Assembly: GCA_950097015.1 (NCBI GenBank)
Contig: CATNEN010000001.1
Span: 7,750,001-7,814,000 of the forward strand
Length of the DNA stretch: 64,000 bases
Source of the DNA: Macrostomum hystrix
Taxonomy: Eukaryota; Animalia; Platyhelminthes
Direction: 5' to 3'
Both the position numbers and the translations under genes were made by a program. Of this stretch, positions 221 to 55,500 are shown piece by piece. How positions within the stretch are numbered: position 1 is the first letter of the stretch; each line of letters starts with the position of its first letter. The notes under the pieces are model-generated. The model was not told the DNA's origin. It saw only the letters and a list, made by a program, of their open reading frames with translations, and did not search any database.

Positions 221-236
221 CTCACATGAGACTTAC

Positions 237-587: not shown

Positions 588-859
588 GCTGAGCTGAAGT
601 GTAAATAAGCAGCAATTCTGGCAGAAGAGTGGGACATGGGTCAGTCTTCTTATCTATGAGGGTTGTTCCGAAAGTCCGCAATCAAACATGCATATTTTCT
701 TTTTAGTCACTGCTTTGAACTAATACTTAATACCATAGACAAGTATCACTAATTGGTTCAAAGCAAGAGTAGTCTTGTTTGAGCAAAGCATTTCCTTCTT
801 ACAGTGTTTGTAGACGTACGAGTACTATGCTAATCAATCAAAAACCATAGCCAACAAGT

Positions 860-1490
860 GGATACAGCATTTTGAAGATGGCTGAGAGACAGTTGATGAA
901 CCTCCAGAGGATCTGGCCTGTCAACAGCTCAAACATCAAGCTCTGGATGTTGACCGCCAAGCCAGAGTTGTCAACCACTATTGGCATCTCATCATTGGCT
1001 GTTCACTTAATCCTGACAGTTGAACTCGGAATGTCACGTGTTCTTGTTTATGATAATAGATCCCAAAACTTCTGATTGACCAGCAGCAGTGAGAGTGGGT
1101 CCAGGTATGCCAGCAGCTCCTCCAGACATATAGCAATGTATCCCAACTTTTTGGACAGGTTTTTGACTAGGGATGAATCTTGGTTATAGTGAGCTAGAGT
1201 CCAAGATGCAGAGCTTCTTCTGGGACCATCTTCTGGGATATCTGCTCATCAAATGTCTTCCTTGTGGTGCTACAATTACTAGTGAGTACTACATTCAAGT
1301 CCTGCAGAAGTTGCCTGATGCCATCAAGGCCCAGTGGTATGCCAAGCTGAGCCATGGCATGCTGCTTCAGCACCACAATGCCAGATAACAATGGCTGCTA
1401 GTTTGGACCTGGGCTGCCAAACCGGTCTTACACAATGAACATCATACCTAGAGACTACTGGCTATTTGGAAAGACGAAAAAACCTTTGAG
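860..1490 (+). mobile_element. Degenerate mariner (Tc1/mariner) transposase relic
   Basis: Fragments FLT*DESW, FFWD..TITSEYY..L..LL.HHNAR and DYWLFGKTKKPLR match mariner catalytic-domain motifs; stops and frameshifts. Confidence 0.8.
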
Positions 1491-1499
1491 GTTGCCAGT

Positions 1500-1945
1500 A
1501 CAGCTCTTCATAGACCATAGCATTGGCCATTTCGAGAGTAGGGAATTTCGAGAGTGCGTGAACTTCGTCGACGACTGGGATTTTAGACAGCGCTTTAGAA
1601 TGTTGCCACCTACGTTCGAGCAGATGCTCGAATTCGCCCAACCTTGGAGTATGGTAGCGTTCGAAGTGGTCAATTGAGTGCCAGGGAGCAAGCGTTGATC
1701 TCGAATTGCATTTCTACGCCTGTAATGGCTGCTACCACGTACTTCGAGACGCGCACGGGCCTTCCGAGTCGTCTGTCACAAGCGTTGTGCGCCGCCTAAG
1801 GACTGCCATTAACTCTGAGCTTTTTCACCATACCGTTGCTTGGCCGGACATCAACAACGTTGTGCAGAAGTTCTTTAACATCGCAGGAATGCCTTCTGTC
1901 TGTGGACTCATCGATGGGACCGGCGTGGACATGGTTGTGCACTTT
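1500..1945 (+). mobile_element. PIF/Harbinger (HARBI1-like) transposase fragment
   Basis: FRQRFRMLPPTFEQML, LHFYA..GPSESSVTSVV and FFNIAGMPSVCGLIDGT motifs; truncated just after the first catalytic Asp. Confidence 0.75.
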
Positions 1946-2472
1946 TAAAATCTTTTCAGTTTTGACTTCTAAGCTAGCGAGACTAGAGCCTTACATACTA
2001 CCCGCTCCTTCTCTTTCTCCTTCTCCAACTCAGCTTCTTCTTCTGCTGCAAAGTGAATGTCTATGGCACGAATTCAATGCTAGGGGGAATAGCAGTACTG
2101 ATATTTACCAGTAGATATTTACCATTTGCTTCATGAAACCAGTTTTTAGCAGACTGCTGAATATCCACAGTTATTTTAGCTGCTGCTAACTGCTAATCTA
2201 CCAGTTGCTTTTGAAATCGGTCCCGGGTGTCATAAGTAATGTCACTATGGTTGTTGTACAGAAAACCAAAGCCATTAGCATCCAAATACATTATATTCTG
2301 AAAGTACATTTATTGAGAAGTTGCCACCACACTGGAGTAGCAATTTTATTTCTTTTTATGCTATCACTGAATTTTATTCTGACCAAAACTGTCGCAAGAA
2401 TTTATTAATCAGATTTAGCAAGCGCAACGCTTAATTAAATTAAATCTTTTTTTGCAACGAGCAAAACTCAAC

Positions 2473-3100
2473 ATGAATCACGACAAGACGCACATCCAGT
2501 TCTACGCTTTTTTTGCCTTAAGATTGGAAAATCTGCGGCAGAAGTAGAGGAGGATCTCCGGACCACACTGCCAGACAACTGCCCAACTCGCAGGACAATT
2601 TACAGGTTGTTTCAGAACTTTACTGATCCTGGGTTCGAATTGGGAGATGCCACCAGATCTGGCCGACCATGTTCAACGCCAAACAAACGAGTCTCCATCT
2701 GTACAACTCCCCTAAATACCAAGGTCGATGGCCAGTACTTCATCGACTTTGTCTGACACACTGGGAACCTCTGGTGCACACTCTGGTCAAACCCGATTCA
2801 CCTGAACGAAGTGCTGTGGCAGATGGACATCTCATGGCCGCACACCTGTCAGGCTGTTTCGGATTTTCTGGCTGGACGGCGAGTGAATCTGCTCTGGCAG
2901 AGTCCCTACAGCCCAGACTTAAACTTGTGCAACAGGTTTCTCTTCAAATGGTTGAAGGCAGACTTTTCCCAGAAAAGTTTTGCAAACCATGATGAGGTCA
3001 AAGAAGCCCTGTTGCACTGGTTCTGACAGCTGGAGGAAAAACACCTGCAGGCTGAGGTGGAAAAGCTGTACGAGCATTGCCAGTGGGTGATTGATATTTG
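2473..3100 (+). mobile_element. Second, internally deleted mariner relic
   Basis: N-terminal HTH region ending RSGRP joined to C-terminal PHT..SPYSPDLN..FLFKWLK (YSPDL signature). Confidence 0.8.
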
Positions 3101-4949
3101 TAGTAGGCCTCTAAAACAAAAAGTTGTGCAAGTTAAAATAACGCGAGAAAAATAATTTGTTTAAAGTGAAACAAGTAAATAACAAAATTTTCTGATTTGT
3201 TTTAATTGTTGAACAGTAAAAAATATTTTCTCAAATGTTTGTTAAAATAGGCACGAAACAAAATATATATTTTGTAATAAATTTCTGTTAAACAATTGCA
3301 AATAAAACATTATATAAGCAGGAATTTTGGAGAGAGGAATTCATAGTGTGCCTTTGGGGCAAACTTACTGACAAACAAGCAAAGATACAAAATCTTTGAA
3401 AATTTAATTTTGAAACTATACCTGTAGCAGAATATTCAGAGAAAGGAAAAATTAGCATGAACAAGAGTGTTCAGAATACTTATAGGACATAGAAAGTAAT
3501 ACCTGCATTACGGAGTTTATCCATAGGTGGTTCAAAGGCCTATTGCTGTGACCCTCAAATCCATAGGTACGCCTGACAGATTAAGTGTATAAAAGGTGCT
3601 AAAAGACCTCTCAGGCCACATATACACATACAAGAGAGAGAGAGAGAAACACTACCATGGAGAATAAAAGTGCAAATAAGGAATATCTTTGAAACATTCC
3701 TTTGATAGCAGTTCTTTCTGCTTGGTGGCAGCACTACTAGTAATAAATAGTAACTTTTGGTAACTAAAGGGTAGTAGTGAGAGTGTAACATTACAGTGGA
3801 GAATATTGAAAAGAGAGCCCTAGAGCATATTGGAGGACACAATGTTGTTGATTGATACAGTTTTTTTATCTATGATTGTTAGTTGGTCTGTTTTACCCTC
3901 AGTGACAGTATTTATGGTACAACAAAAGTATTAGACAAGTTATATTTTGGACTTTCTCAACAACCCACATAGTAATATAGTGCTAAGCTAACCTAGTAAT
4001 CCAAAAAGTTAAATTTCTTAGAAAAGTAGGAAAAAATTGTTTTATATTTAGCTCACTGATTATATACCTTTCAAATTTGTCAAATTCATCAGCTGTGTAG
4101 AATTTTTCTACATTTTAATCAGAATGTAAGATTTTAATAAAGCATGGTGCAATGTAACAACTAAGCATGGCCTATTGTAGTGCTTTATAGTGGTGGGGTG
4201 GGCCAAGGCAATGCTATTTTGGGCTAGCCTAACTTACAATATTATACAGTTCCTGGCATGTCTATGAACTTAGTGCAACAATTTCAATAGGGGTCAAGAC
4301 ATTGCATTTATTTTACTCTTAATAGACTAATAAATAATTGAGATGTATATTTAACTTGTCTAAGGTACAAGGCAAGCTATAGACTTTACAAAATCAAAGC
4401 CTATATATTAAATAACAAATTAGCTTGGCCAAAATTAACATATTATAGGCCTACTGATAAAAAAAATAGTAAATTAAAAAGACTGAATTAAAATTTATAA
4501 TACTAGGCCCTCGCCTGGGCCTGGCCTAACTTAACTAATCATAATTAACTAGATACAGTGCATGTAGGTACAGGCCAGGCCACAGTCAGCTAAGCCTCAG
4601 CGATGCAAAAATTCCTTGAGAAATAAGACATTGATTTCTACTAGCTAACCACGCTAGTCAGTCAGGTAGCGTAGCCTAGCTAGTTATTTAATCAGAAGTA
4701 ATAAATTAGGCCAAAGTCTGTTTTTTAATTACAACATTTTTTATTCTAGCCTTTGACTAGTCTACATTCACACTTAAAAGTTTATGGTGTATAGTTATAT
4801 TAATCCATTTTGACACAACGATTCATGTTAATTTCATAAGTAAAGTGTACAGGCCACTACAGTGTCTACAGTGCTGTACTTTAATAATGTAGAATTAGAA
4901 ATAAAGCTTTCGTAAGACAAGTTTCATATTATTTCCTGGGCAGTGTAAC

Positions 4950-5090
4950 TTTTAGTTCTTACGTTTAAAGTTATGAATACAAAAGTTGATAGTACGCGCG
5001 CCACATTTTAATGCGTCTAGAAACGAAACAATCCGGGTGAGAACTTTGTGGTGTGCCGTGGGGAAAATAGGATTTTTTAAACGGCTTCAA
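4950..5090. promoter_or_regulatory. Candidate bidirectional promoter (local CpG cluster)
   Basis: About nine CpGs incl. ACGCGCG between two CpG-poor flanks, lying between the divergent gene at 587 (-) and SWEET (+). Confidence 0.4.
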
Positions 5091-5765
5091 TAAAGCTTAC
5101 AAAACTGTGTTTAAAAGTACTTAAAATTATAGACTAACTAACAACATATATATTTAGTTCATAAGTAAGACTTTAATAAAGCAGTGTTGTAACAGTAGTA
5201 ACATTGTAAAGTACAAGACAAAAATATTTGTTTGTCCTAGTAAACGTGTTTTTAATATGGCTATATTTTAAACAGTTAAATTTTCTAAGAAGTTTGAATA
5301 CAATTACCATAAAATTAATATATATTTAATTTCTTGATTATTTTTCTATTTTAACTATGGCCTATGGTCTTCTTTTTAGCTCTCGTTGCTAGCTGGTATG
5401 GGACTCAGTAGCATACCTATTTAACTGCTGTATTTGTAACAGAAGCATATTTATTGTAGTTTTTCGTTTTTATATTTACCCTTGGCAGAATGGCAGTGTC
5501 AAAGTGTCATATATGAAAAAACATGATTACAAGACTGTTTGATATAATATTAATCTTTAGTAGCTATTCTATTGCTGAATTAACTAGCTAGATATTTTTA
5601 AGACAAAGTCCAGTCCATATTGTTTTTCATTTTAGTCTGATTATTAAAAAGTAAACAGTTGTTACTGTTTTTGCACATTTTCTAACCTTAGAAACATTTA
5701 CTGCTGATTAATTCATAAGGCTAATTTATCAATTTTGCATTTCAGCTTTCCTAAATCCTACCCAT

Positions 5766-8413
5766 ATGACTTATGGAGCAATTCACTTGGTCGGAAATCT
5801 GGCATCTATGTTTTCTATCTTGTCCTATCTGCCGGGACTGTAAGTTGCTAATAAAAATTGTGTTGAGTTGTCAGGTTGTTTATAATAATATATTTTAAGC
5901 TACCTTACCTATGCACCTCAGTTTGAATTTTTTGCTCCTATATTTCAGTAAGATAATGGCATCAATTATTACTAAAAAGTCATCTGAATCCTATTCATTC
6001 TTCCCATATGTTGCAATGCTAGCTAGGTAAGTTTTTCTGCTGTTATGAAAAGCAAAATATATACCTAGTATAAAAGAAAAACTCATTTATGAATATATAT
6101 TATACATATTATAAGTTTAGATAAATTGCAAAACTAATTTGAAACTGCAGCTCATCTGTGTGGCTCAAATATGGCCTAGTTCGAGAAGACTTTCCATTAA
6201 CCTCAGTGAGCTGCTTTGGTCTTGTAGTTCAAGCAGTCGTTGTGTTGGTGTTTTATCTGTATGCTAGGCACAAGGTGAGTCTAAATGGCTGTTTATGTGA
6301 CAACAAACAGTGAGAAATTATTGAACATGAATGAAAATGTACTGGAGTATATCTGAGCAAAAAATCTTTCACTTTTCAGATCGCCATCCACTTTCAGTTA
6401 ATGCTCTGCATGCTGATGGTGTTTCCAATCTTGTCTTATGTTAGATTTTCGCCTAATCTAGATTTGGCCATTGAGCATTTGGGTATATATTGCACAGCGG
6501 TATCAATTATATCCTATGGGTCTCCGTTATCCGCTGTGGTAAGTTCAGTTTAAATCAGTCTAGCATTGCTTAATCATCGTAGTATGGAATGGCCAGTGAA
6601 TGAATCGTAGCAGGAATCGCAGCTAGAATCTAAAACAGGAATATTAGCTGGAAATAAAAAATATCTACAGCTAGAATTTAACCACTAAGTAGTAATCGCA
6701 GCTAGAATTGAAACAGGAATCGCAGCTAGAACTGAAACAGGAATCGCAGCTAGAACTGAAACAGGAATCGCAGCTATAGAATTGAAACAGGAATCGCAGC
6801 TATAGGATTGAAACAGGAGTCGCAGCTAGAATCGAAACAGGAATCACAGCTAAAGGATCGAAACAGGATTCGCAGCTAGAATCGAAACAGGAATCGCAGC
6901 TAGAACTGAAACAGGAATCGCAGCTAGAACTGAAACAGGAATCGCAGCTATAGGATTGAAACAGGAATCGCAGCTATAGGATTGAAACAGGATTCGCAGC
7001 TAGAATCGAAACAGGAATCGCAGCTATAGGATCGCAGCAGGAATCGCAGCTATAGGATCGAAACAGGAATCGCAGCTATAGGATATAATCAGGAATCGAA
7101 GCTATAGGATCGCAGCAGGAATCGCAGCTATAGGATCGAAACAGGAATCGCAGCTATAGGATATAATCAGGAATCGAAGCTATAGGATCGCAGCAGGAAT
7201 CGCAGCTATAGGATCGAAACAGGAATCGCAGCTATAGGATATAATCAGGAATCGAAGTTATAGGATCGCAGCAGGAATCGCAGCTATAGGATCGAAACAG
7301 GAATCGCAGCAGGAATCGCAGCTCGAATCAAAACAGGAATCGCAGCTATAGGATCGAAACAGGAATCACAGCTAGAATTGAAACAGGAATCGCAGCTAGA
7401 ATCGAAACAGGAATCGCAGCTATAGGATAGAATCAGGAATCGAAGAGTATAGGATCGCAGCAGGAATCGCAGCTATAGGATCGAAACAGGAATCGCAGCA
7501 GGAATCGCAGCTCGAATCAAAACAGGAATCGCAGCTATAGGATAGAATCAGGAATCGAAGCTATAGGATCGCAGCAGGAATCGCAGCTATAGGATCGAAA
7601 CAGGAATCGCAGCTATAGGATCGAAACAGGAATCGCAGCTATAGGGTCGAAACAGGAATCGCAGCTATAGGGTCGAAACAGGAATCGCAGCTAGAATTGA
7701 AACAGGAATCGCAGCTAGAATCGAAACAGGAATCGCAGCTATAGGATAGAATCAGGAATCGAAGCTATAGGATCGCAGCAGCAATCGCAGCTATAGGGTC
7801 GAAACAGGAATCGCAGCAGGAATCGCAGCTATAGGGTCGAAACAGGAATCGCAGCTATAGGGTCGAAACAGGAATCGCAGCTAGAATTGAAACAGGAATC
7901 GCAGCTATATGATAGAATCAGGAATCGAAGCTATAGGATCGCAGCAGGAATCGCAGCTATAGGATCGAAACAGGAATGCAGCTAGAATTGAAACAGGAAT
8001 CGCAGCTAGAATTGAAACAGGAATCGCAGCTAGAATTGAAACAGGAATCGCAGCTATAGGATCGAAACAGGAATCGCAGCAAGAATCGCTGCAATGTCTA
8101 CTTATCTTATTTTCAGTCGGAGGTAATCCGTACCAAATCATCGGACAGCATGTCACTGGGTCTTATACTGTTGAACTTTATCACTGCCTGTCTCTGGCTG
8201 GCTTACGGCAGTTTAGTTCACGACAGCAATCTGACGGTGCCAAATTTTGTTGGCGCCTGTTTGAGCTGCTTCCAGCTGGGATTAATCTGCATTTTCCCTG
8301 CTACTGGCGCCGCTTCATTGTCGGCAGGTTCTGGTGCATCGTTGAAGACAGACTCGCCTAGTCAATCAGAGGCAAAGAAGAAACGTTTATTAGGATCTTT
8401 AGCACACGTCTAA
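5766..8413 (+). CDS. SLC50A1: SWEET1 sugar transporter (MtN3/saliva family), 5 coding exons
   Basis: Exons 5766-5839, 5949-6026, 6151-6274, 6380-6538, 8117-8413 join in frame with GT-AG; motifs KKSSESYSFFPY, WLKYG, YGSPLSAVSEVIRTKSSDSM, LWLAYG..D..VPNFVG. Confidence 0.92.
6603..8090. repeat. Minisatellite, 24-26 bp unit (GGAATCGCAGCTAGAATCGAAACA), fills SWEET intron 4
   Basis: Dozens of tandem copies ending ~25 nt before the acceptor. Confidence 0.95.
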
Positions 8414-35414: not shown

Positions 35415-38400
35415 AGCTTGTAGTAGGAGGGCTAGTAGTAGGGGCCGCACACGACTCCTAAAAGTATATAATTTAATAGTATTTCACTTTTACGTGTAAT
35501 TAAAAACAGTTATGCATTTGTTATATATAGCTTGGCTGCCTTAATCTGGTAAGTAGTATATCTTACTAAATATTTAGTACACACAACAATTTTTAGTGCA
35601 CATGGTACACCCTTGGCATGCACAAAAACTTTTTATTCAAAAAAGAAAAAATGAAAGTAAAAAATAATTTTGCAACTTTAAATACAAAACCATTTTTAAG
35701 CACACTTTTTAAATAAATTATACAGATCTATTTAGATTTTGTTTTACCTAATTATCATGATATTAAAAATACTAGGCCTAGCACATTTTATTTAAAAGCA
35801 AGAATTGTTCATTTTATTGAACAGTCTTAAAGTCACTTGCAACTTTGCACTTGTATATGCCAAATGGTTAGCTATATTATTGGTCTATACATGATAGGTT
35901 GAAACTTGAAACTAGTTTGTACACAAACTTAATATTCATGTTCAAAATGTATGCCAAGTGTATGCCAACAGCCACTGAAGCACTTAGAACTAGTTTGGCA
36001 TACAGGCCACCTTATGGACTATGGGATTCAAAATTGGTCTAAAATCTACAATGCTGATGTAATCTGTTTAATGCAAAAACTAAGTAAATAATGCTTTACT
36101 TAAGGCCTAATCTCTAGACTCTAATAGCTATACACATTAAAAAATATATAATTTACTATTTTAGTCATAAAAATAAAGAAACAAGGCTCAGCTAATAAAT
36201 ATCTTGCTTCAGCTTAGGCCTAATAAATAAATAAATAAATAAATAAATAGACCATATCTTGCAATTGCAAAGCTGCAAAACATTAAGAAAAAAGTTACTT
36301 ACCTTGAACTCAACAACTGAATAGGTAAAGAGCTTCTCTTGGTCTTAGATTCACAAGAAAGGCAACATTTCTTAGTACAAGAATTATGACTGACTGTCAC
36401 TTCATAGCAAAGCAAAATATGATCAGAACTATTACAAGAAAATAAGTCAAAATGATTCCACGGAGTCCTATTGAGTGGAAACAGGAACTGCTGGTGCTTG
36501 GAGAGTGCTAGCTTTTGATACAAGAAAAAGTAGTCAAAAAGTGCTGATTCATTCAGACAAAGTGCTTTAATGCAGCACATAGTATCTAGCAAATTTTTAA
36601 GTAACTCGAAAGAAACTTGTTAAGCTACTGCAGAATTTTGGTTTAAGATTTTTAAATGCATGCATGCAGCATGCCTAAAGCAGTAGGCCTACTCTATAAA
36701 TGTCTTGCTGTTGCAATCGATGTACTCGCGGTCACTTAGGCTTAGCTAGGCCCTAGCTAGAACTAGAAGAGTACACTTAACTTTAAAATTAAGACAAGAA
36801 CGTTTTTTATGAAAAAGTTGCTACTTATTTGCTAATTAGTAATTTAACTCATAGATTACAAGTCAATTTTATACATAAAATTTCGAAATTTGCTTTCTGT
36901 TATGCTTGTTCAATGATGTTTATTAAAGTCACGCTGACACTCAGATTAACCAAAAATAGAAAATTAACGAAACTTCGACCATTTCGTCATGTTGCTCAAA
37001 CTAAAATCACAAAAGTTGCTAAAAAGCTGCCTTTAAAAATATAAAAAAGATTTTAGCTTTAACAAAAGGTGTAAAAAGCATTGTGTATTCGCATTACTTA
37101 AACAGTAATAAAAACGTTTTGTTTAACTATTTAATTACCACATATTTTATAAACCGTAGCCTGGTAATAAAATAATCCTAAGTAACTATATATAGCTTTT
37201 ATCCAAGGAGAGGACTCTTTTTCGAGTGGTCCTTGCTTTTTTATTGCTAAGACATAAAAAGGGCTTCCTAAAATTATAGTCTATTTTAATAAACTCATGT
37301 TAGATCTTTGACAGCACTGAAATTTCTGACTTATAATGAACTCGACTGAGCGACACAAAACTACTAGTGGACACTCAAACCTACTATATTATTTTGCTTT
37401 TTATAACACCTTTACGTGTGTATAGTCCTCAATTCCATTAAAAAATTTAATCGTAAATATGTCTACAGTGCAGTATACGTCTGACAGAAATTAAGGCTTG
37501 TCGCCAGGCCATTCTGCTCGCCCTCCAGCCTTTGATCGCAAAGCCGCACGTTTCATGCTGATCCATGCCGGCAATCTTTAGCCGGCCCTGCTCAGCCTGA
37601 TGCGCGGCCACCGTTGGTCGCGGCATTGATGTATCAGTTAATTTATTCTCTTTGTTTTTGGTTGCAGTTACAACGGACCAATAGTAATTATTAAACCTAG
37701 GTTCGGTGCTGTGTCTTCCTGACTTCGATTTGTCGTTGACGTCGATTAACCAGTACTCACTTGTGGAGTGTGTTCCTTCTTACCAGCTTTGGTAGGTTCT
37801 AGCACAAGTCTGGCGCTTAGCCCTTGTAGTTCGTATAGTATAATCAACGTAATCACGTACACGTCTGTGACTACGACTTAATCATTGGTTAAACGATTAC
37901 TTGGAGTAGAGAGGTTTACTTAGCTCAATAAAAGACTTCTAATTAATAAATAATTAATTAGGATAACTCAAGGAACTCTTACCACAAGTCTTGGACCTGG
38001 AGTCTGATTTACTTCTCTCCGGTTCCTCTTCTCGGCGAGACTCTGAATCTGGGCTCGCTCCGGAGTTCTTGTATTTATAGAGAATCGAACCCTCTCGGGT
38101 TCGATGAGTGCGTTCAGTGTATACAGGTGTTGTACCTGTGGTAGCGTGGCACACACAATTGGTAAAATAACCAAGACAGGAACTAGATTTCGAGAGAGAG
38201 AGTTTATACCGGCCTCAACACTGAATGCTTCGTAGCAGTGGACAACCCGGTAGTCAGGCTAGATTTACCTAGTTTTCTCGGTCTTGCCTTGAATCAAACA
38301 ATGATTCTTGCAACCTAGTTCTGCTCTGAAATCTGACGATGTACTCTGCTTCGAAACGCAGTACACGGTCTAACTTCACTATAAGTTAGCAGTAGTTTAG

Positions 38401-40951: not shown

Positions 40952-41199
40952 ATGTAACCTTCTTAATTAACCAAGTTTAAACTAACTCGTATATATAAAC
41001 TATACATCATGAAGAAGTGTTTTAGTGTTTTAGTCACTTCAAAAAATGTTTCTGAACTTTGATGATAAGTTAAAACAGAAAATAAATTCATCGATACGTA
41101 CGAATGTACAAGATTTACCAGATTTCGTTACCTGGTTTTGATCTATAGCAAAGTTCAGTTATCTATATATAAAGTTAGCATTTCAACAAGAGGAAAACA

Positions 41200-41380
41200 T
41201 ATTTAGTGTCCTAAATTCACTATAGTGCATTAGTTATTCCAGCTGCTAAATTAGTACCAGAAATAGTTGCAAGGGTAAAATTTCGGGTATAATTTGTCCC
41301 CGACCCAGTCCATGGACTGAGCAGCTGTACACGGCCAGGGAACAGCTGCTGATGTGGCACAGGCTGTATGTTTGGTCCAA
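41200..41380 (+). mobile_element. SINE family B copy, antisense just 3' of the fucolectin gene
   Basis: CCAGCTGCTAAATTAGTACC core-like block and CAGTCCATGGACTG. Confidence 0.6.
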
Positions 41381-41404
41381 TGTTTTCAATTGAAATTCAG
41401 ATTT

Positions 41405-45273: not shown

Positions 45274-46019
45274 GATACAGGTGCCAATCTGGATTCGCTT
45301 TCCAACCTGTAATATTGCGGGTTAACTGCACAGCTCAGACAAATCAGAGATTAAACTGTTTAAGCCACAACTGCTTTCGATATCCTCACAAATTCCTTGT
45401 TGCGCCTAAAATTCTGCTGTTTTCGACACATTTAGTTGCTTTATAATGTTCTAATGATTTTAAGATGTCAATCTAATTTAAATTGTGTCTTGAGGATAGA
45501 AAAACGAACGCCTGTTTGCTAGATCGAATACGTAGAAGACTTGAAAAGAAGAGGATATGATGATTCTTATCTCATCTTAAGAGCTTATCTCATCTCCAGA
45601 CAAAATTTAAGTAAATATACGCGACAAAATTCGATGCTTATTTGCTCAGAAAAGAACACTTTCAATGGCCAGCTGTAATGGGTTAAATATTTTGAATTAA
45701 AGAAGCACCCTTTCTTTTTCAAATAATATACCAACTTTGAGGCAGTCCCGAAGATAAATAAAGTAATTTGCAAAGCAATTTTCAGCGTGAATTGTTCCAA
45801 AATCTTATATTGCTACACCCAGTCATTGGTATTTACTCGCAGTCCTAAACCAGTTCATATGGCTAGGTGTGGCAGCCTGACCAGTCTATGGACTGAACAG
45901 GAGGTGTACACAGAATGTAGAATAAAATGACTTTCTGCGTCGCCAAGCTACAACACGCGGTTCCTTCAATAAATTATCGAAACTGAGAAAGTATAAGCGC
46001 CAGCGATATCTTGACTTAC

Positions 46020-46650
46020 ATGACTTAGGTTGAGGGGGCATCCTCCGGATGCAGGAGGCGTCCAGTCGCGACTATTGCGCTAGCCCCTAGTGACCACGGG
46101 CAACTAAAGCTGGGGTGTCGCGCAGGGGGATCCGGTGATGCCGGCGTCCACGGCGCGGTAACGAACGAGCTGGCGGATGTTCACAGGCCTACAAACGTCG
46201 GAGAGGTCCGGGTTTGGGCCGAGATAGGTGAGCCTGTCCTGAGTGAAGGCGGGGCAGTCGCAAATAAAATGCTCTGCATCCTCAACGTTGGAGAGGCAGA
46301 AAAGGCACTCCTCACTGCGGATTTTGCCTTGCAGGAAGCGGTGTATAGCGAAACAGCCATTGCCAGAGAGAGCCATGGTGACTGCCCTGATGTCCCTGCG
46401 GTTAAGTCCAAGCAGGGCTTTGCGGAGGGCAGTGGAGGGACAAGGAACAGCAGCGCGAGCCTGCCGACAACCAGCGGTGTTGATCCACCCGTCCTTCGAG
46501 GTCACACACTGGTTAATCCAAATGTTGACGACGGCGAAAGGGGTGGAGAGCGAACCAGGCACGGGGCCAAAAAGCGAGCCCGTCGAACTGGCCTTGGCAA
46601 GGCTGTCGGCCGATTCGTTACCGCGGGGTGGCCAGATGCCCTGGAATCCA
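46020..46650 (-). mobile_element. 3' fragment of an RNase H-bearing non-LTR retrotransposon (I/Loa/R1-like)
   Basis: [10 protein letters not shown] (RNase H end) and [15 protein letters not shown] zinc knuckle. Confidence 0.8.
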
Positions 46651-46699
46651 CCTTAGGGAGACCTTGTTATGTGTCCCTTAGGTGCTTAAGTCCACGACT

Positions 46700-46930
46700 T
46701 TACAGGAAGAGAGATGTAGAAAAAGTACACACGCACATAGATACTGTACGCAGGCACACACTTTCTCATCGTCAGGCAATGTGCACTTTCAATGTATACC
46801 ATATAGAGGTTGGCCCAAAAAGGTGTAAATTACATGACAAGCTCCAAATGAATGTAGTCTCGCCGCGGAATCGAACTCGGGGACCTTGGTGAGAGAGAGA
46901 CAAACGCGTTAGACAGCTCTGTCACTCGCC
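46700..46930 (-). mobile_element. tRNA-derived SINE, family A, second copy
   Basis: GAGTTCGATTCCGCGGCGAG..CATTCATTTGG shared with 8690-8952. Confidence 0.7.
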
Positions 46931-47369
46931 CACCCGATATTTGTATCCCTATACTTTGCATCCACAATTGTTACCACTTTACTGTTTAATAAACCAGCGG
47001 TTATATCATCCGATGGTAAAATAATTAAAGGCAGTTCGAAAGAAAGATAGACTTACTCACGAAAGAATTCTGGTTAAAAATTAAAAAGAAAATGGACTAT
47101 GTGCGAATATTAAAGTGCAAGTGTGAACACTTATCGTTTTGCATAAAAATTGTATGCAGACATCTGGCCAGAATAACTTTTTTAAGTTAAAGCAGTTAAA
47201 TTTTTCAGCAGAGAGTCGCTCTATGATATGATATTGCGGTTGCAAGATCAGTATAGTGACAATTTGCAGTCACGGCTAATGCCACCAAGAGAATTGATGG
47301 CTGCGTTCTGCTGCATTCACACGCACCGCATTGTCAGCTTGTCGATTGAGTTTCAGTTGCAAGCAGAAA

Positions 47370-47740
47370 ATCACAGTTTTCAGGCTGACCACTCTCAGTT
47401 TGCTGCCGAACCCGGCCCAGCTGAAGTTGGCCACGGAGAAGGGCATTGTGAGGTTGACTCGGTTGCACTCAACTCCATCCAGACGCAGTGTGAACTGCTT
47501 GAGTCGATCAGAGCAACAGTCCAGCCTGTTGTAGACGGTGACGCACGATACGAAAGCAGGTTTCGCCAGTTGCGCCTGCCACCACTCAAAGCTTGTTCTA
47601 TCTGTGTGGGTGCAAGACCCCATAAAGTAGTCTTGGGTAAAATTGCCATCAAGTGCTAGAGAGCATTGCTTAGACTGGAAAGTCGAGCTCTGATTGCAGC
47701 CAATTGTACACAGCTTCTACAATTGAGCGTTAGAGACGTC
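47370..47740 (-). pseudogene. Damaged fucolectin paralogue exon
   Basis: CNQSST..ALDGN..SCTHT..VYNRLDCCSDRL; in-frame TAG near the acceptor, loss of the terminal CEF strand, no PAN exon found. Confidence 0.65.
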
Positions 47741-48109
47741 TGGTAAAATTTAAGTATAGAATGACTCCAAAAACGTGATATAAAATCTACAAGTGTCAAT
47801 AAGAACAATCGGATTCTCTCCACTGTTTTTAGTTTTAGATAAACCAATAAAGATACGAATTAATTGTCTGCGATGCAAGTGTTGCAGGGCTATTCTATAA
47901 TATTTAATATCCCACTGATGCCACCAAAGTTGTACCAGGTCTGATCTCACTGCTGCTGTTTCAAATAGATATTTTAGACTGGCGGTCCTTAAATGGGCCG
48001 TTTCAACTTCTCAATATGGTAGCGCATGTGTTGCACGAGCGGTAATTAGGCACTATATGTACTTTTCAGCCGATTAGGCGTTCCCGAGATTAGAGTTTAG
48101 CAGTTCCCT

Positions 48110-48270
48110 CTTAGTAATATTCTTAGTATAAATCTGAGTATATGTCTTAGTATGGTTCTTAATATGGTTCTCAGTATAGTTCTTAGTATGGTTCTTAGTA
48201 TGGTTCTTAGTATAGTTCTTAGTATGGTTCTTAGTATAGTTCTTAGTATGGTTCTTAGTATAGTATACTC
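48110..48270. repeat. Short 12-bp tandem repeat (TTCTTAGTATGG)
   Basis: About a dozen copies. Confidence 0.85.
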
Positions 48271-48980
48271 AGTATATCTCTCAATATCTTCTCACAAATG
48301 GCTAACACAATGAATTCTTTCCTCAAATCACTCTTTTATATCTCGAACACACTTAAAGCTTCAACAATGACTTGACTTTCGGCCAACAATTTTACTCACA
48401 CACTCTCTCTCACTCTCTTACACGCACGGCGAGTTTATTTTTCTGTCTGAAAAACTGCGGCTATATATACAATAGTTTTTTAGCATTTGTTTAAATGGTG
48501 AATTTTCACAAAATATTTACTCGGTAATCATTAAAACAAAAATGTTCATACAGTATTACTTTCAATATAGTAAAGAGTAAAACAAAATTTTGTTATTTTT
48601 GGCTTGTATTTAATTTTTAGATTTTTTAGTCTTTTTATAAAACGTACATTTACAACAAAAAAATGAAACATATACAACAAAACTAAAACTGATAATGTAT
48701 TTACACCGTTACACAAGGACTACTAAAGGACTGCTAGTGCTAACTATACTTGTGGTCCTTGCAGCGATGCTGGTTGTACAACTGCCCTTAAACACTAGCT
48801 CCCTGATCGTACAAAATAACCGGCTGAAGAAGCCGCACAGCTCGACTGCGGGCTGGCCTGGTCGGTTGAAGAATGCCGAAGCGTTGAACAGTCGGCACAG
48901 ACCGTCGAGCCAGCGGAAGCTGAAGCAGACGGCTCCTCTGGCAACACACTGCTGGGACAGACAGTGCAGCCTCCCGAACA

Positions 48981-49516
48981 ACAACAACAACAAAGGACGA
49001 CAACCCAAGGCCGAAGCCAAAGGGGGCTGCCGTCAAAAGGCACGTGCAAGAGCAGAGTGGCGCAGAATTGTCAGTCCGCGGGGGTCGGAGATTCCAGCGT
49101 CAGTCAGTAGCAGTTCAGGGTAGCGTAGCGCCCTCGCCTGACCACGCCGCCAGGGCCCCCGCAGTGAAAGCAGCAGCACGTCCTGCAGTGGCTCGGGGCA
49201 GCGCTGCTCCGCACGGATGGCGTGGCCAGCCAGCAGCTGCAGGCGCCGGATGCGCAGCAACTGACTTGGCCGGCAGAGCTGGGCCCGGCGATAGAGCTGA
49301 TCATAGTTGCTGGTGTTGGTGACGGCAGTCGGCGAATAGTGGACGCTGAAAGCGGCTCGCAGGAGTCCAGCGTGGGCGGCATCGAGTTGCTTCTCCTGCG
49401 TGCCGTTCAGAGTCCACGGCAGCCTCCCGACTCCGGACAGATCGGCGAAGTAGGACGGCTCGGGCAGGCAGCCGCGGCTGACCATGAGCGTCTGAACCGC
49501 GGCGATGGCAGATAGG
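48981..49516 (-). mobile_element. 5'-truncated RTE-like non-LTR retrotransposon
   Basis: WTL..LD..LLR..LY..IRRLQLLAGHAIR RT C-terminus, (TTG)n tail, possible 5-bp TSD GAACA. Confidence 0.75.
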
Positions 49517-52500
49517 GAACACTGACTATAAGTCCCCACAGCAGAAGCAGCAGCTGTGGACTTAAAAGCTGCAACTGCATTTAGAAGAAATTTTAACGCA
49601 TTAAAAACGTAGAACTCGCAAACATGGATTGCTTAATTTCAACATTTACTGCATATCACAATCATTTATCGCTTCATATACGAAATTTTATAAAAATCGG
49701 CGTGGAAAAAAAGTTTACTTTCAAAGAATCCATTAATTTCCGGAATGTTTGCATCTACCTATTTGAACAAGGTTCCTCTCTTGTGCTAGAACCGGACGTT
49801 TCGGAGGCAAATAGTTACAAAGTGAAATTTAGTGCTTCTCGTTTTTTACTGTATTCGGGTGATCGTCTTAACTATGTTGTTTGCTTTACTAAAGTAAATT
49901 TTACTAGGCGTGTCACTCATTGTCAACTATAACAATTAAACGGTTATTCGTTATGCGAATTTTTTTATTAGTAAACGATTTGCTACATGCAGTATCTGAT
50001 CCATACTCCTGGTTCTAAAGGTATCACTTGTAGCTCCTAGTTGTAGTCTGTACGAGTGTATTTCGTGCATACTGTATGTATATAGTTCATATAGCGAGGT
50101 ATTCTTAGGTGATTACTAGCATGACGCTATATATAATATATATCGAGGTGATCGTGTTTTTGATCGCTACGAAAGTATGATCGCTAAAAATAGTATGAGA
50201 AATCGTATTTGGGGCTCCAGTGAGTAATCTAAGAGTCGTTTGCGATTATATAAGGGTAATTAGATAAAATATAAAGAAGATGATTAAACAGGAGATGTTG
50301 GTATAATATGGTGATAGACAGATTAAAATAACACCCCAAAGCCCATAACAGCAAAATAGCAGTCGGATGTGAAAAAAAGAATTTAACAAACAAACAAGTT
50401 ATAACACCTAAATTTACACATTAGTATACTATTTAACCTTTTTCTAGAAAAAATGAAAAAGTCAGATCTAATTAAAACTTTTTTCATTTGTTGTTTTTGT
50501 GTTTACATTTAAAATGCGTCTCTTTATATTTTTCTATCCAATTGTACCGACCGACCGACATGTCATATATTATGTAATTTACATTATAGGCCTATTTAAT
50601 CATTCCCCAGTTCTTAATTATTTTATTCGTTTGTTTTGCTGTTCATTGCTAATGCCTATTGTGCAAATGTGTTATGTTTGTTTTCACTGTAAAGTACTTG
50701 TTTAGCTAGGCCCTAAAATTTAATTAAAGCACGCTTTATAGGCTATTAGGCCTAATATTAGTAATGAGCCCAGTGTCTTTCCGAGATCAAGATTTAGACA
50801 TTTTGACAATTAAATTTGTATTCATGATTTATTATTTAGCAAGTGGCCTTTTTTTGTGCATGGTGAGGCATTGTACATTGCATATAGAACAAAAAGTATA
50901 TACAAATCATTCAAATTAGTCAATTTGCTGGTATTCTATCTGCTCACTGACATAATAGCAATTTCTTATTCTAGTTCATGCCATGTTGGCCAACTTGTCT
51001 CTGGGCAGACAAGATTGTAGTAGACAAAGAGACTAAAACATACCTATCTCTAGGCCTAGGCCCTAGACACCTTGCTAGAATAATAAAATCTCTGGTCCTA
51101 GATAAGATATTGTGTGTATCAGAATTTAAAAAATAAATTTAAAACTATACTATAGATGTGGGGCTACTTTGATACATTTCAATGGGGCCTTCAAGCTCCA
51201 CATAATTTTAATAAAGATTTTTCTAGTGCTTGTCAAGTATCAGAAATAATTTTTTGACCTTTTAGTTCTAAACTTTTTGCAATCAGTTCTTTTTTATGTG
51301 CAGGCTTTCAGAATTAAAGTATATAAAAAATTACATTGTTATTATTTTTTCCTAATTCCTCTTAAACAGTGAACATAAAATGTGGTTTGAATCCTCAATT
51401 AGCTACTATGATACTATTACTATATTGATTTGTCTTGTAGACTTCTTACTAGGCTGGACCTATTAAAAAAATATTTTGTTCTAACATTTAATTTTAATAA
51501 TTCAACATAATAAGGTACAGTGTTACCATAACAATTTACAAAAATGCATATACAGACAGCTATGTGTAGCTAAGACCATTGACCATAGCTTCACATGTAT
51601 CTAAGATGTGAATAAATGACTAAAAATGTGCTAGAAGCCTAGAGATACATGTATTTGTTAGATCTAGGTATATAGCAACATTGTAGTGCTACAAATTAGT
51701 GCAAGCTAGTCACCAGTATTGTATTTAGTACACAATAGAAATTAAAATTTCAATTGAATATTGGTCCAATGTAAATTTCATATTTTAATTTATCATTACA
51801 TTAAGATGCCTTTTTATAAGCAAAAATTGCAACAACTCAGCATTATGGCTAGGCTATAGAAGATAGCCACTAGGTAATTTCATGAATTTCATTAATGGGA
51901 TGGAAATTTCATAATTGCCACTTTATAGGCATTATTTATTATCATGTCCATTATATGATGTGGCTTGAATATGGACATAGAGACTGTCTATTATTCCTAA
52001 GTTATTTTGCAATAATATTGTTAATATTAGGGTAAGGGACTTGGTAGCCATGTGTATAATGTTGTAGCTAATAGGCACATAAGCTGTAATTACTCCTTTA
52101 ATTATAACTTGAGTTAATATTAACTTAATTTCTAAATTTCTAAAGATTCACTTCAAAGAGTGTAGTTGGTAGTGAGCCACCCATTAATTGGGCCTAGATG
52201 CCAATATCAATCTCACTAATTTAATTTTTGTATTGGCCTATTTGTTTATCTTTCAAATGCATGTTAAGTTAATCATTTGTATAATAGATTTATGGTAGGT
52301 ATTAGCCTTAGTGAATCCATTATTATTAAAAAATGTGTCATTATTATATGCATAATATCAAAGAAAAAAAATATTTTTTCAAGTTTTTAATTTTAGAGCA
52401 TTAAAGTATGCATTCAACCAACCAAGGCTATATGCATTTCCAGAGCCATTTGTAGTGTTCTAACTGTACAATAACCAAAAAATCAGCACAATAAAAGCTG

Positions 52501-52537
52501 AGACCAGAAGCTATTAAAGGACATTCCAACACCCAAA

Positions 52538-55500
52538 ATGGAATGCCCAGTTTGTGGCACCCTTCTGCCATTAGACGAGCGCTCAAATCTGCATGTTGAA
52601 GCACATTTTTCTAGTGCATCCCATTCCACCACATCAGCTGCATCCACCTATTCCATTGATGATTTATCGACTAGTCAAGGCGCATGCGCTAGCAATCTCA
52701 GCAATGACTCAGGACGTTTAGGATTTGCAAAGAGTAGAGCATTGTTTGGAGGTGAGTTATAAGTATATTTACTGTGAGAAATATTCCTGATCTATTATTC
52801 ACTGATCAAAATCGAAACTAGACTGATCTAAAACCAATCTAGACTGATCTAAAACCAATCTAGACTGATCTAAAGCCAATCTAGACTGATCTAAAACCAA
52901 TCTAGACTGATCTAAATCCAATCTAGACTGATATAAAACCAATCTAGACTGATCTAAAACCAATCTAGACTGATCTAAAACCAATCTAGACTGATCTAAA
53001 ACCAATCTAGACTGATCTAAAGCCAAACTAGACTGATCTAAATCCAAACTAGACTGATCTAAATCCAATCTAGACTGATCTAAATCCAATCTAGACTGAT
53101 CTAAATCCAAACTAGACTGATCTAAATCCAATCTAGACTGATCTAAAACCAATCTAGACTGATCTAAAACCAATCTAGACTGATCTAAAACCAATCTAGA
53201 CTGATCTAAAGCCAATCTAGACTGATATAAAACCAATCTAGACTGATCTAAATCCAATCTAGACTGATCTAAAACCAATTTAGACTGATCTAAAACCAAT
53301 CTAGACTGATCTAAAACCAATCTAGACTGATCTAAAACCAATCTAGACTGATCTAAATCCAAACTAGACTGATATAAAACCAATCTAGACTGATCTAAAA
53401 CCAATCTAGACTGATCTAAAACCAATCTAGACTGATCTAAAACCAATCTAGACTGATCTAAAGCCAATCTAGACTGATATAAAACCAATCTGGACTGATC
53501 TAAATCCAATCTAGACTGATCTAAAACCAATTTAGACTGATCTAAAACCAATCTAGACTGATCTAAAACCAATCTAGACTGATCTAAAACCAATCTAGAC
53601 TGATCTAAATCCAATCTAGACTGATCTAAAACCAATCTAGACTGATCTAAAACCAATCTAGACTGATCTAAAACCAATTTAGACTGATCTAAAACCAATC
53701 TAGACTGATCTAAAACCAATCTAGACTGATCTAAAACCAATCTAGACTGATCTAAAATCAATCTAGACTGATCTAAAGCCAAACTAGACTGATCTAAATC
53801 CAAACTAGACTGATCTAAATCCAATCTAGACTGATCTAAATCCAATCTAGACTGATCTAAATCCAATCTAGACTGATCTAAATCCAATCTAGACTGATCT
53901 AAATCCAAACTAGACTGATCTAAATCCAATCTAGACTGATCTAAATCCAATCTAGACTGATCTAAAACCAATTTAGACTGATCTAAAGCCAAACTAGACT
54001 GATATAAAACCAATCTAGACTGATCTAAAACCAATATGTACTGATCTAAAACCAATTTAGACTGATCTAAAACCAATCTAGACTGATCTAAAACCAATCT
54101 AGACTGATCTAAAACCAATCTAGACTGATCTAAATCCAATCTAGACTGATCTAAAACAATCTAGACTGATCTAAAACCAATCTAGACTGATCTAAAACCA
54201 ATCTAGACTGATCTAAAACCAATCTAGACTGATCTAAAGCCAAACTAGACTGATCTAAATCCAAACTAGACTGATCTAAATCCAATCTAGACTGATCTAA
54301 ATCCAATCTAGACTGATCTAAATCCAATCTAGACTGATCTAAATCCAATCTAGACTGATCTAAATCCAATCTAGACTGATCTAAATCCAATCTAGACCCC
54401 AAATAAAACCTATTGTCTACAAATAGTTAAACAAACTTAAATTAATTAGCCACTGGGAGCAGTTCCACTAGTCGCATGATGAGCGGAGGATGGGATCTGG
54501 ATCACGCCGCCGCAGCAGCAGCCATGGAAGCCTCTGATGCGGCTATGGCAAGACAATTGCAACGCGAAGAGGACGCCAGATTAGCTGCCAGAGAAGCGGA
54601 ACAGCTGAGAGAGATGTACGGCCTTACTGGCGTGTCTAGCGACCAGCAGTTGCAACGGGCCCTAGACAATGCCGTCGAGCGAGGCAGCATGGGGGTGGCT
54701 GATGTCTACGAGATTCAAAGATTGAAACGTTCGGCTAACCGTGTTGGCTACGACGATGGACTATCTAGGACTCCGGGACTAGCTCCAGCTCTGCAGGTTT
54801 GTACAGCTTGCTCTCTTGGTTTTTAATGTGCTTCTGTGTCATTTATGTGCGATTATGTGTTTTTTATGTGTACTAGGTCTGTTTTATGTGTACTAAGTCA
54901 GTTTTATGTGTACTAAGTCTGATTTATGTGTACTAAGTCTGATTTATGTGTACTAAGTCAGCTTTATGTGTGCTGAAGTCTGTTTTATGTGTACTTAAGT
55001 CAGCTTTATGTGTACTAAGTCTGTTTTATGTGTACTAAGTTTGTTTTATGTGTACTAAGTCTGTTTCATGTGTACTTAGTCTGTTTTATGTGTACTAAGT
55101 CTGTTTTATGTGTACTAAGTCTGTTTTATGTGTACTAAGTCTGTTTCATGTGTACTAAGTCTGTTTTATGTGTACTAAGTTTGTTTTATGTGTACTAAGT
55201 CTGTTTCATGTGTACTTAGTCTGTTTTATGTGTACTAAGTCTGTTTTATGTGTACTTAGTCTGTTTTATGTGTACTTAGTCTGTTTCATGTGTGCTTGTT
55301 TTGTCTTATGTGGTTTAATGTAATTTTATGTACTTTTGTCTGATTTGCGTGTGCTAAAGTCAGTTTTTAGGCGTCCCAATGTCAGTTTTATGTGGGCTTG
55401 TGTGCTAACTTAGTTCTTTTTTGCGCTCACATTCCAGGCTTGGTATTCCAAGCAGCGTTTCACAGTGTCGGAAGACAGCATCACGAATGTGCTCTGGTGC

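What the first reader, a model, noticed from the sequence alone, without database searches (positions are those of the whole stretch)
50500..52575. CpG deserts mark only the 5' end of each gene cluster (candidate promoter-proximal methylation domain)
Seen: by eye there is no CG dinucleotide from ~50785 to 52575 (1.8 kb upstream of the ZUP1 ATG), from ~35495 to 36460 (PPP1R15-like first intron) or from ~3572 to 4511, and few in 5470-6180, although GC, CC and GG are common there. Each desert starts just beyond a small CpG cluster (50515-50560, ~36720-37000, 4950-5090). Downstream exons such as TRAPPC9 exon 2 and MIPEP are CpG-rich, and TRAPPC9, MIPEP, SETD8 and PNISR have no comparable desert. 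Known: germline 5mC erodes CpG to TpG/CpA. Inference: methylation is confined to the first 1-2 kb of primary transcripts, so the deserts map true promoters and separate cluster-leading from downstream genes.
Basis: partly seen in the sequence, partly recalled or inferred. Interest (0 to 1): 0.8.

Follow-up and report, generated by a model that had tools for sequence, protein, structure and literature searches.

The report
CpG-erased leaders of flatworm genes
In this Macrostomum flatworm, the 1-2 kb of DNA just after the likely start of several genes (mostly leader or first-intron DNA that is cut out of the mature RNA) has lost almost every CG pair while later exons keep theirs, which likely marks germ-line DNA methylation confined to gene fronts and could help locate promoters that trans-splicing hides.

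Summary
Real and far beyond chance: 0 CpG in 50784-52575 (40.7 expected), 0 of 19.9 and 0 of 24.0 in the other two deserts; other AT-rich DNA is at o/e 0.65-1.2. The organism is a Macrostomum flatworm (its spliced leader matches 22/22). The ZUP1 desert is not upstream promoter DNA but the outron: an RNA-like contig runs through it from 50560, while mRNA-like contigs begin at the acceptor 52443. The other deserts lie in a first intron and another outron. In all three, CpG loss begins about 230-550 nt beyond a CpG cluster where RNA-like contigs end (weak start evidence). Transposon copies inside one outron show C-to-T/G-to-A decay at CpG; transposons outside keep CpG. New here: TAGGCC is about 10-fold enriched in the same zones. 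Best reading: 5'-confined germ-line gene-body methylation, inferred, with no 5mC measured. A fixed 1-2 kb length and operon status of TRAPPC9, MIPEP, SETD8 and PNISR are not established. 5'-biased gene methylation is known in insects (exon-targeted), and the scan noted this pattern before in two other flatworm genomes.

The parts
50515..50560 (+). CpG cluster at the inferred ZUP1 transcription start
   Evidence: CpG at 50517, 50548, 50552, 50556; RNA-like contigs of X2 and X3 end at 50560 and 50544 (one study, weak hint of a start)
50544..52443 (+). ZUP1 outron (5' leader replaced by trans-splicing, inferred)
   Evidence: X2 contig covers 50560-52751 with 0 differences and leaves the genome at the exon-1 donor; X4 and X6 contigs begin at 52443 (G of the acceptor AG) with 22 unaligned letters each
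50784..52575 (.). CpG desert 1 (about +230 to +2025 from the inferred start)
   Evidence: 0 CpG vs 40.7 expected
50587..52240 (.). TAGGCC/GGCCTA sites in the ZUP1 leader (50587, 50707, 50747, 51051, 51057, 52191, 52235)
52444..52751 (+). ZUP1-like exon 1, ATG at 52538; CpG partly depleted (6 vs 11.1 in the coding part)
   Evidence: downstream exon hits Pfam Peptidase_C78
36302..36942 (-).
   Evidence: contig ends 36942 (X2, X3), 36933 (X6), 36883 (X4); spliced joint 35456-36302
35495..36460 (.). CpG desert 2: end of exon 1 plus the 845-nt first intron, about +480 to +1450
   Evidence: 0 vs 19.9; GT-AG intron on the minus strand
595..5057 (-). 4.46-kb outron of an unidentified membrane-protein gene at the left edge
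   Evidence: X2 contigs cover 236-1921, 3029-3902 and 3878-5057; X4 loose end behind 594 is 22/22 identical to nt 13-34 of the published M. lignano SL
3572..4511 (.). CpG desert 3, about +545 to +1490; 3572-3932 is transposon-derived, 3933-4511 looks single-copy
   Evidence: 0 vs 24.0; X1 depth
1038..1423 (.).
   Evidence: 0 vs 21; Pfam Transposase_1
2227..3932 (.). Younger mariner-type copy in the outron, split by a 733-nt insert (3094-3826); decaying at CpG
   Evidence: joint 3093-3827 in family contigs and T/A-for-C/G differences; HTH_48 and DDE_3
5470..6180 (+). CpG-poor front of the SWEET gene, spanning its first acceptor (5745) and first three exons; start not mapped
   Evidence: 2 vs 16.1; exons from joints; MtN3_slv; exons 1-3 hold 4 CpG vs about 11.5
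48790..49500 (-). Control: 3' fragment of a non-LTR retrotransposon just upstream of the ZUP1 start; keeps its CpG (o/e 0.89)
   Evidence: best hit a M. lignano reverse-transcriptase protein, 56% identity

Best explanation
The CpG deserts lie in the front part of transcription units of a Macrostomum flatworm (two outrons, one first intron, the first exons of SWEET) and are likely the mutational scar of germ-line CpG methylation that is confined to that front part. Shown: CpG is absent there, present at the start-site cluster and in later exons; the deserts are transcribed; one is bounded by an SL acceptor seen directly. Inferred: the first 200-500 nt stay unmethylated (start-site chromatin), DNMT3/DNMT1 methylate the next 1-2 kb or more on both strands, and 5mC deamination turns CpG into TpG/CpA until none is left in unconstrained DNA, while coding exons in the zone lose about half. 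Transposons that land in the zone are eroded in proportion to their time there. The chromatin mark that sets the zone (an H3K36 methyl mark read by the DNMT3 PWWP domain is the textbook candidate) and any role of the co-located TAGGCC motif are untested.
For: Depletion 0/40.7, 0/19.9, 0/24.0 with GpC normal or high. From +250 to +1450 of the three contig-defined starts: 7 CpG vs 89.1 expected; upstream of two of them 66 vs 56.2; 574 of 6520 sampled strand-aware positions are equally depleted. TpG and CpA both raised (1.20, 1.24 vs 1.03, 1.10; full conversion would give 1.29, 1.37), with CATG and TGCA among the top 4-mers. Repeat copies in the left outron carry T/A where other copies have C/G: 45:12 (X1), 23:7 (X2), 34:10 (X4), 29:6 (X7), whereas in 34700-52795 the same tally is 101:102 (X2), 59:77 (X4), 92:98 (X3), 58:67 (X6). 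9 of 15 listed such transitions are at a family CpG (28% expected, p 0.007) vs 2 of 13 in the other stretch. Transposons outside the zones keep CpG: 0.89, 0.86, 0.72, 0.95. M. lignano keeps DNMT1 and DNMT3 and has low 5mC (PMC11292947, PMC9246332, PMC10658182; passages).
Against: No 5mC was measured and no genome was available to check DNMT genes or to extend beyond four units. Starts rest on contig ends, which the tool rates a weak hint; run types are not on record and I inferred RNA from spliced joints. I chose where to lay reads because deserts were there. TpG/CpA gain is only about 60% of full conversion and weak in desert 3. PPP1R15-like exon 2 is undepleted (30/28.9) at +1490, where ZUP1 is still CpG-free, so the 3' edge is not a fixed distance. 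The context test uses only the 40 best-supported rows of 135 and of 458, different transposon families, and slightly different neighbour rules. A Helitron-like piece inside a MIPEP intron is at 0.58 and the Harbinger-like piece inside the outron at 0.94, both against a clean inside/outside split.
Confidence: 0.7

Rival explanations
1. The methylated domain is set by RNA processing, not distance: it runs from the start to the first coding or trans-splice acceptor, so whole outrons and first introns are methylated whatever their length.
For: Desert 2 ends 37 nt before the exon-2 acceptor and desert 1 ends 132 nt after its acceptor; the left outron is CpG-poor up to its acceptor at +4.4 kb (0.32 at 595-1037); earlier scan notes speak of 1-7 kb zones (unchecked).
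Against: SWEET stays depleted through its first acceptor, three exons and introns and recovers by distance (4/11.5, then 5/6.8, then 11/15.5). The far left-outron deserts can also be explained by later transposon insertions pushing old zone DNA outward (about 2.3 kb inserted), or by a second start near 2013 (weak hint). CpG return at coding exons is partly expected from coding constraint.
Confidence: 0.3
2. The deserts are scars of transposon-targeted methylation (as in chaetognaths); outrons and first introns simply collect old methylated insertions.
For: Desert 4 and part of desert 3 are transposon remnants with CpG-type decay; chaetognaths, another trans-splicing lineage, methylate transposons and not genes (PMC12460157, passages).
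Against: Four transposon pieces outside the zones keep CpG (0.72-0.95) and show no mutational polarity. Over deserts 1 and 2 only single 0-difference contigs were listed, with no repeat-family pile-up (RNA-like runs only); 3933-4511 is at single-copy depth in the DNA run. SWEET exons are depleted too.
Confidence: 0.1
3. No methylation: CpG is removed by selection or by another process (keeping a CpG-reading promoter factor off the DNA behind the start, or a compositional promoter-proximal code of which TAGGCC and CTAG are part).
For: The zones have a distinct word content that CpG conversion does not produce: GGCC o/e 7.8, CTAG 2.5; TpG/CpA compensation is incomplete.
Against: Neutral transposon copies lose CpG by transitions on both strands (6 T-for-C, 3 A-for-G among the 9 sites), which is what deamination gives and weak selection would hardly achieve; complete absence over 1.8 kb.
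Confidence: 0.1
4. The scar is a fossil: methylation made it in an ancestor and is now weak or gone.
For: Macrostomum 5mC is reported only as low; a young transposon in the outron is still at o/e 0.94.
Against: Zero CpG in 1.8 kb means new CpGs are still being removed; copies 93-97% like their family already show the decay.
Confidence: 0.1

Closest known systems
5'-biased gene-body methylation of insects (fire ant, honey bee: PMC3622302, passages; P. citri and N. vespilloides, first three exons: PMC7343188, passages)
   Same: Methylation inside active genes, concentrated at the 5' end, promoter spared, correlated with start-proximal active histone marks.
   Different: There it is exon-targeted and measured; here it is inferred, strongest in outrons and first introns, and erases CpG completely.
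Mosaic invertebrate gene-body methylation (annelids, molluscs, Ciona; PMC11292947 and PMC9246332, passages)
   Same: CpG loss with TpG/CpA gain inside transcribed genes next to CpG-normal intergenic DNA; CpG-rich start.
   Different: Later exons here are not depleted (o/e 0.85-1.38), so the domain does not cover the gene body.
Chaetognath transposon-only methylation (PMC12460157, passages)
   Same: Trans-splicing, operon-bearing spiralian; transposon copies show CpG decay.
   Different: Here transposons outside 5' zones keep CpG and single-copy gene fronts lose it. That paper links trans-splicing to loss of gene-body methylation; this pattern would be a counter-case.
ZFX/ZNF711 motif AGGCCT(AG) at +240 of human CpG-island promoters (PMC5848610, passages)
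   Same: A near-identical word (TAGGCC/AGGCCT) placed downstream of the start.
   Different: Here spread over about +35 to +1200 and beyond in AT-rich, CpG-free DNA; no binding protein was sought; the resemblance is a lead only.
Macrostomum SL trans-splicing and operons (PMC8629364, PMC10468722; passages)
   Same: Same leader sequence, AG acceptors, conserved genes.
   Different: The passages seen do not map outron starts or mention CpG or methylation ('methylat' 0 hits, 'methyl' 0 hits).

Membership tests
Invertebrate gene-body methylation | 5mC measured at CpG inside genes | not testable with these tools
   No bisulfite, EM-seq or nanopore run among the 8 listed
Invertebrate gene-body methylation | CpG depletion with TpG/CpA gain inside transcribed DNA | tested here: met
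Invertebrate gene-body methylation | CpG-retaining start site | tested here: met
   CpG clusters at the three contig ends; starts are weakly mapped
Invertebrate gene-body methylation | Covers most of the gene body including later exons | tested here: not met
   ZUP1 exons 2-4 and PPP1R15-like exons 2-3 at o/e 0.85-1.4
Invertebrate gene-body methylation | Targets conserved, broadly expressed genes | tested here: inconclusive
   ZUP1-like and SWEET confirmed by Pfam; breadth of expression not measurable from contigs; conserved MIPEP, SETD8 and PNISR lack deserts
Invertebrate gene-body methylation | DNMT1 and DNMT3 present in the genome | not testable with these tools
   No genome held; reported for M. 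lignano
Insect-type 5'-biased gene methylation | Confined to the 5' part of genes | tested here: met
   profiles, four units, by CpG proxy
Insect-type 5'-biased gene methylation | Exons more methylated than introns | tested here: inconclusive
   Non-coding DNA is more depleted than exons, but coding constraint confounds the proxy
Transposon-targeted methylation | Transposons depleted wherever they sit | tested here: not met
   4 of 5 pieces outside the zones at 0.72-0.95, one at 0.58; no polarity in 34700-52795
SL trans-spliced outron | Leader sequence joined at an AG acceptor with no upstream donor | tested here: met
   Seen directly at 594; at 52443 (22 letters) and 5745 (20 letters) inferred from unaligned lengths, letters not displayed
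Operon-downstream gene (TRAPPC9, MIPEP, SETD8, PNISR) | Read-through from the upstream gene and SL at the 5' end | not tested
   Both read-laying runs were used elsewhere; long tandem arrays lie next to these 5' ends
ZFX-type downstream promoter element | Motif bound by a ZFX-family zinc-finger protein | not tested
   Only motif enrichment was tested

The most novel reading that the evidence does not exclude
Macrostomum has retargeted gene-body methylation to the disposable front of housekeeping transcription units (outrons and first introns), in a domain marked by a ZFX-like TAGGCC word and ending near the first coding acceptor, so that CpG cluster, then TAGGCC, then CpG desert reads out true promoters and operon leaders from sequence alone.
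Probability: 0.25. Interest if true: 0.75.

Novelty: new variant of a known kind. Interest (0 to 1): 0.5.

Why it matters
[quoted passage not shown] A sharply 5'-confined, intron/outron-centred domain would be an unusual form of gene-body methylation, would contradict the suggested link between trans-splicing and loss of gene-body methylation, and gives a precise prediction for one EM-seq or nanopore run. Practically, trans-splicing erases true starts from mRNA; a sequence signature for them would map promoters and tell operon leaders from downstream genes in a transgenic regeneration model. The TAGGCC enrichment points to a candidate promoter-proximal factor.

Tried and rejected
No whole genome is held, so no genome-wide plot or DNMT search. 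The look-up of sequencing runs: no RNA holder listed on record, and no methylation library among 8 rows; RNA character of X2, X4, X6, X7 was inferred from spliced joints and an SL end, of X3 only from contig ends shared with X2. Parts without cover (49800-50403 in all four runs; 5176-6477 in X2) are not used as evidence; the SWEET start stays unmapped. I first took the ORF at 49036-49485 for an expressed host gene with its own promoter and no desert (a counter-example); one search showed it is a retrotransposon fragment, so this was dropped; the Atlas search on it gave only unnamed clusters. A metagenome scan with the ZUP1 exon found only distant eukaryote relatives (79 loci, best segments 23-70% identity); the 24 loci of 8 kb or more show no TAGGCC excess (o/e 0-1.7) and were not informative. 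A self-BLAST found no repeat with one copy inside and one outside a zone. Tandem-array CpG gaps were set aside. CpG conversion as the source of GGCC/CTAG excess was simulated and rejected. The primary M. lignano genome paper reporting low methylation (PMC4603488) is not held; I know it only through three reviews' passages, and it or its supplements may already show where 5mC lies. Literature searches: Macrostomum + DNA methylation (20 of 36 listed), + CpG/methylome, + bisulfite, flatworm/5mC/DNMT1 from 2022, outron + DNA methylation + CpG, TAGGCCTA/AGGCCTAG + motif: none listed a Macrostomum methylome map or this motif in invertebrates; subscription journals are largely not searched.
Full report
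Observation. The CpG-free stretches are real: 50784-52575 has 0 CpG against 40.7 expected from its own C and G content, 35495-36460 0 against 19.9, 3572-4511 0 against 24.0, and 5470-6180 2 against 16.1, with GpC at 1.4-2.0 times expectation. Ten of 11 other AT-rich stretches have o/e 0.65-1.23; the eleventh (0.49) lies inside the left outron. After masking tandem repeats no other dinucleotide shows a comparable gap (largest expected count 14.6 for TA, against 40.9 for CG). The other long CpG gaps are tandem arrays and were set aside.

Organism. A loose end in run X4 at position 594 is the reverse complement of nt 13-34 of the 35-nt M. lignano spliced leader printed in PMC8629364 (passage; 22 of 22 letters, compared by eye), and the leader's final G coincides with the G of a genomic acceptor AG. 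The leader is highly conserved among Macrostomum species (PMC10468722, passage), and a retrotransposon fragment has its best hit in M. lignano. The window is therefore from a Macrostomum flatworm; the species was not determined. No genome is held.

What the deserts are. Run types are not on record; I read them from behaviour. X4, X6 and X7 show GT-AG joints and act as mRNA; X2 shows both spliced joints and intron cover and acts as total RNA; X3 shares X2's ends; X1 covers 185-6685 throughout and acts as DNA. ZUP1-like gene (Peptidase_C78): an X2 contig covers 50560-52751 with no differences and leaves the genome at the exon-1 donor; an X3 contig covers 50544-51936; X4 and X6 contigs begin at 52443, the G of an acceptor AG, each with 22 unaligned letters, the same geometry as at 594 (letters not displayed). 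Desert 1 is thus the outron plus 132 nt of exon 1, not upstream promoter DNA. PPP1R15-like gene (label not confirmed by Pfam): contigs of two studies end at 36942, 36942, 36933 and 36883, and an 845-nt intron joins 36302 to 35456; desert 2 is the end of exon 1 plus this intron. Left-edge gene: X2 contigs cover most of 595-5057 and end at 5057 where the DNA run goes on; mRNA-like contigs cover 236-594 with the SL; desert 3 and the 1038-1423 gap lie in this 4.46-kb outron. SWEET (MtN3_slv): mRNA-like contigs begin at 5745 with 20 unaligned letters (computed from record coordinates and bin depth); its start is unmapped.

Profile. From +250 to +1450 of the three contig-defined starts there are 7 CpG against 89.1 expected; in the 950 nt upstream of two of them 66 against 56.2; 574 of 6520 sampled positions and strands in the window are as depleted. 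I laid reads where deserts were, so this tests the placing of the edge, not how often promoters have deserts. Coding exons inside the zone are partly depleted (SWEET exons 1-3: 4 vs about 11.5; ZUP1 exon 1: 6 vs 11.1) and later ones are not (ZUP1 exons 2-4: 24/28.2, 35/33.3, 34/24.7; PPP1R15-like exon 2 at +1490: 30/28.9). The 3' edge varies: +1450, +2025, and in the left outron low CpG reaches +4.4 kb (0.32 at 595-1037). That can be whole-outron methylation, old zone DNA pushed outward by about 2.3 kb of later insertions, or a second start near 2013 (two X2 contigs of much higher depth end there; weak hint).

Mutational signature. TpG+CpA in the four zones is 569 against 498 expected from control DNA (z 2.7); o/e 1.20 and 1.24 against 1.03 and 1.10, where converting every control CpG would give 1.29 and 1.37. 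Transposon copies give a more direct test. In 185-6685, where the repeats lie mostly in the outron, the window has T or A where other copies have C or G far more often than the reverse: 45:12 (X1), 23:7 (X2), 34:10 (X4), 29:6 (X7). In 34700-52795, whose listed differences fall in repeats outside the zones, the tally is even: 101:102 (X2), 92:98 (X3), 59:77 (X4), 58:67 (X6); Fisher p 0.006 and 0.0001 for the two shared runs. Among the rows printed (40 of 135 and 40 of 458, the best supported), 9 of 15 such transitions are at a family CpG in the outron (28% expected, p 0.007) against 2 of 13 elsewhere. Families and ages differ between the two stretches, so this is supportive, not conclusive. CpG o/e of transposon pieces: inside the outron 0.05, 0.27, 0.53 and 0.94 (the last, young and far from the start, goes against the trend); outside 0.89, 0.86, 0.72, 0.95, and 0.58 for a Helitron-like piece in a MIPEP intron. 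The 0.89 piece is the ORF at 49036-49485, which I first took for a promoter-bearing gene without a desert; it is the end of a reverse transcriptase.

A second signature. GGCC was the most enriched of all 4-mers in the deserts (o/e 7.8 vs 1.2). TAGGCC/GGCCTA has 17 distinct sites in the 6.0 kb after the four starts (SWEET start assumed near 5090) against 1.6 in dinucleotide shuffles (maximum 6 in 500), and 0 sites in 11.4 kb of AT-rich control DNA, including the DNA upstream of two starts and in front of TRAPPC9, MIPEP and PNISR. CpG conversion does not create it. The motif was noticed in these same sequences, but the excess is far beyond a correction for all 6-mers. It resembles the ZFX motif found at +240 of human promoters (PMC5848610, passages); that is a lead only.

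Mechanism. Shown: CpG kept at the start cluster, erased in the next 1-2 kb or more of transcribed DNA, normal in later exons and intergenic DNA, with transitions on both strands. Inferred: germ-line 5mC confined to this zone, lost by deamination. From established knowledge: DNMT3 is guided to gene bodies by H3K36me3 through its PWWP domain (PMC12460157, passage), and exclusion from H3K4-methylated start nucleosomes through its ADD domain (recalled). M. lignano keeps DNMT1 and DNMT3 and has low 5mC (PMC11292947, PMC9246332, PMC10658182; passages), which fits a small methylated fraction. Rivals: a processing-defined domain (start to first acceptor), transposon-targeted methylation, selection without methylation, and a fossil scar; see the rival list.

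Comparison and novelty. 5'-biased gene methylation is known in ants and bees (PMC3622302, passages) and in P. citri and N. vespilloides (PMC7343188, passages), but there it targets exons. Classical mosaic methylation covers gene bodies, a feature tested here and not met. Chaetognaths methylate transposons only, also not met. Ascidian promoters are CpG-rich near the start, with outron starts unmapped (PMC3333190, passages). Searches listed no Macrostomum methylome map; the primary paper on M. lignano methylation was not available and may bear on this. The scan itself noted the same pattern in two other flatworm genomes (e1-9552900, e1-9520758, unchecked AI notes, found after my read-laying results); TAGGCC was met in no earlier finding. 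Verdict: a real feature, a new variant of gene-body methylation by inference, already seen twice by this scan, here strengthened by outron mapping, transposon polarity and a co-located motif, and limited by four units, weak starts and no direct 5mC. Interest 0.5.

Noticed in passing
window 50587-52240, 35773-36752, 3104-4712, 5359, 6173: TAGGCC/GGCCTA about 10-fold and CTAG about 2-fold enriched just downstream of starts, absent upstream and in control DNA; resembles the ZFX motif.
   Followed up: partly
window 1892-2013: X2 contigs from here toward 236 are much deeper than those at 3029-5057: weak hint of a second, proximal start inside a transposon remnant in the left outron.
   Followed up: no
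window 2227-3932: Nested insertions in one outron: high-copy mariner-type element split by a 733-nt insert, beside a Harbinger-like piece (label recalled) and an older mariner remnant; could date the methylated zone.
   Followed up: partly
window 48790-49500: GC-rich 3' fragment of a non-LTR retrotransposon 1 kb upstream of the ZUP1 start.
   Followed up: yes
window 30310-30375: Likely short cis exon 1 of MIPEP with an in-frame ATG and a GTAAGT donor (sequence only).
   Followed up: no
window 34040-34270: Exon that looks like the PP1-binding tail of the PPP1R15-like gene (recalled resemblance, no Pfam hit); mRNA-like contigs continue about 260 letters beyond the donor at 34921.
   Followed up: partly
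window 34685-34920 and 33312-33880: Milder CpG shortage in PPP1R15-like intron 2 and behind its last exon (gaps of 219-252 nt), possibly a tail of the zone.
   Followed up: no
window 37700-41000: Multi-copy repeat region, probably an LTR-type element; other copies lack 38115-38809.
   Followed up: no
window 41405-41824 and 47276-47716: Two related F5/8 type C (galactose-binding) domain exons, 68% identical, with a THAP-domain transposon (42300-44480) between them.
   Followed up: partly
window 27500-28200: Pif1-type helicase fragment (Helitron-like) inside a MIPEP intron, CpG o/e 0.58.
   Followed up: partly
whole window: 27% of the window is minisatellite arrays (units of about 16-38 nt), filling most later introns; some units contain CpG and some do not, with no clear positional rule.
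   Followed up: no
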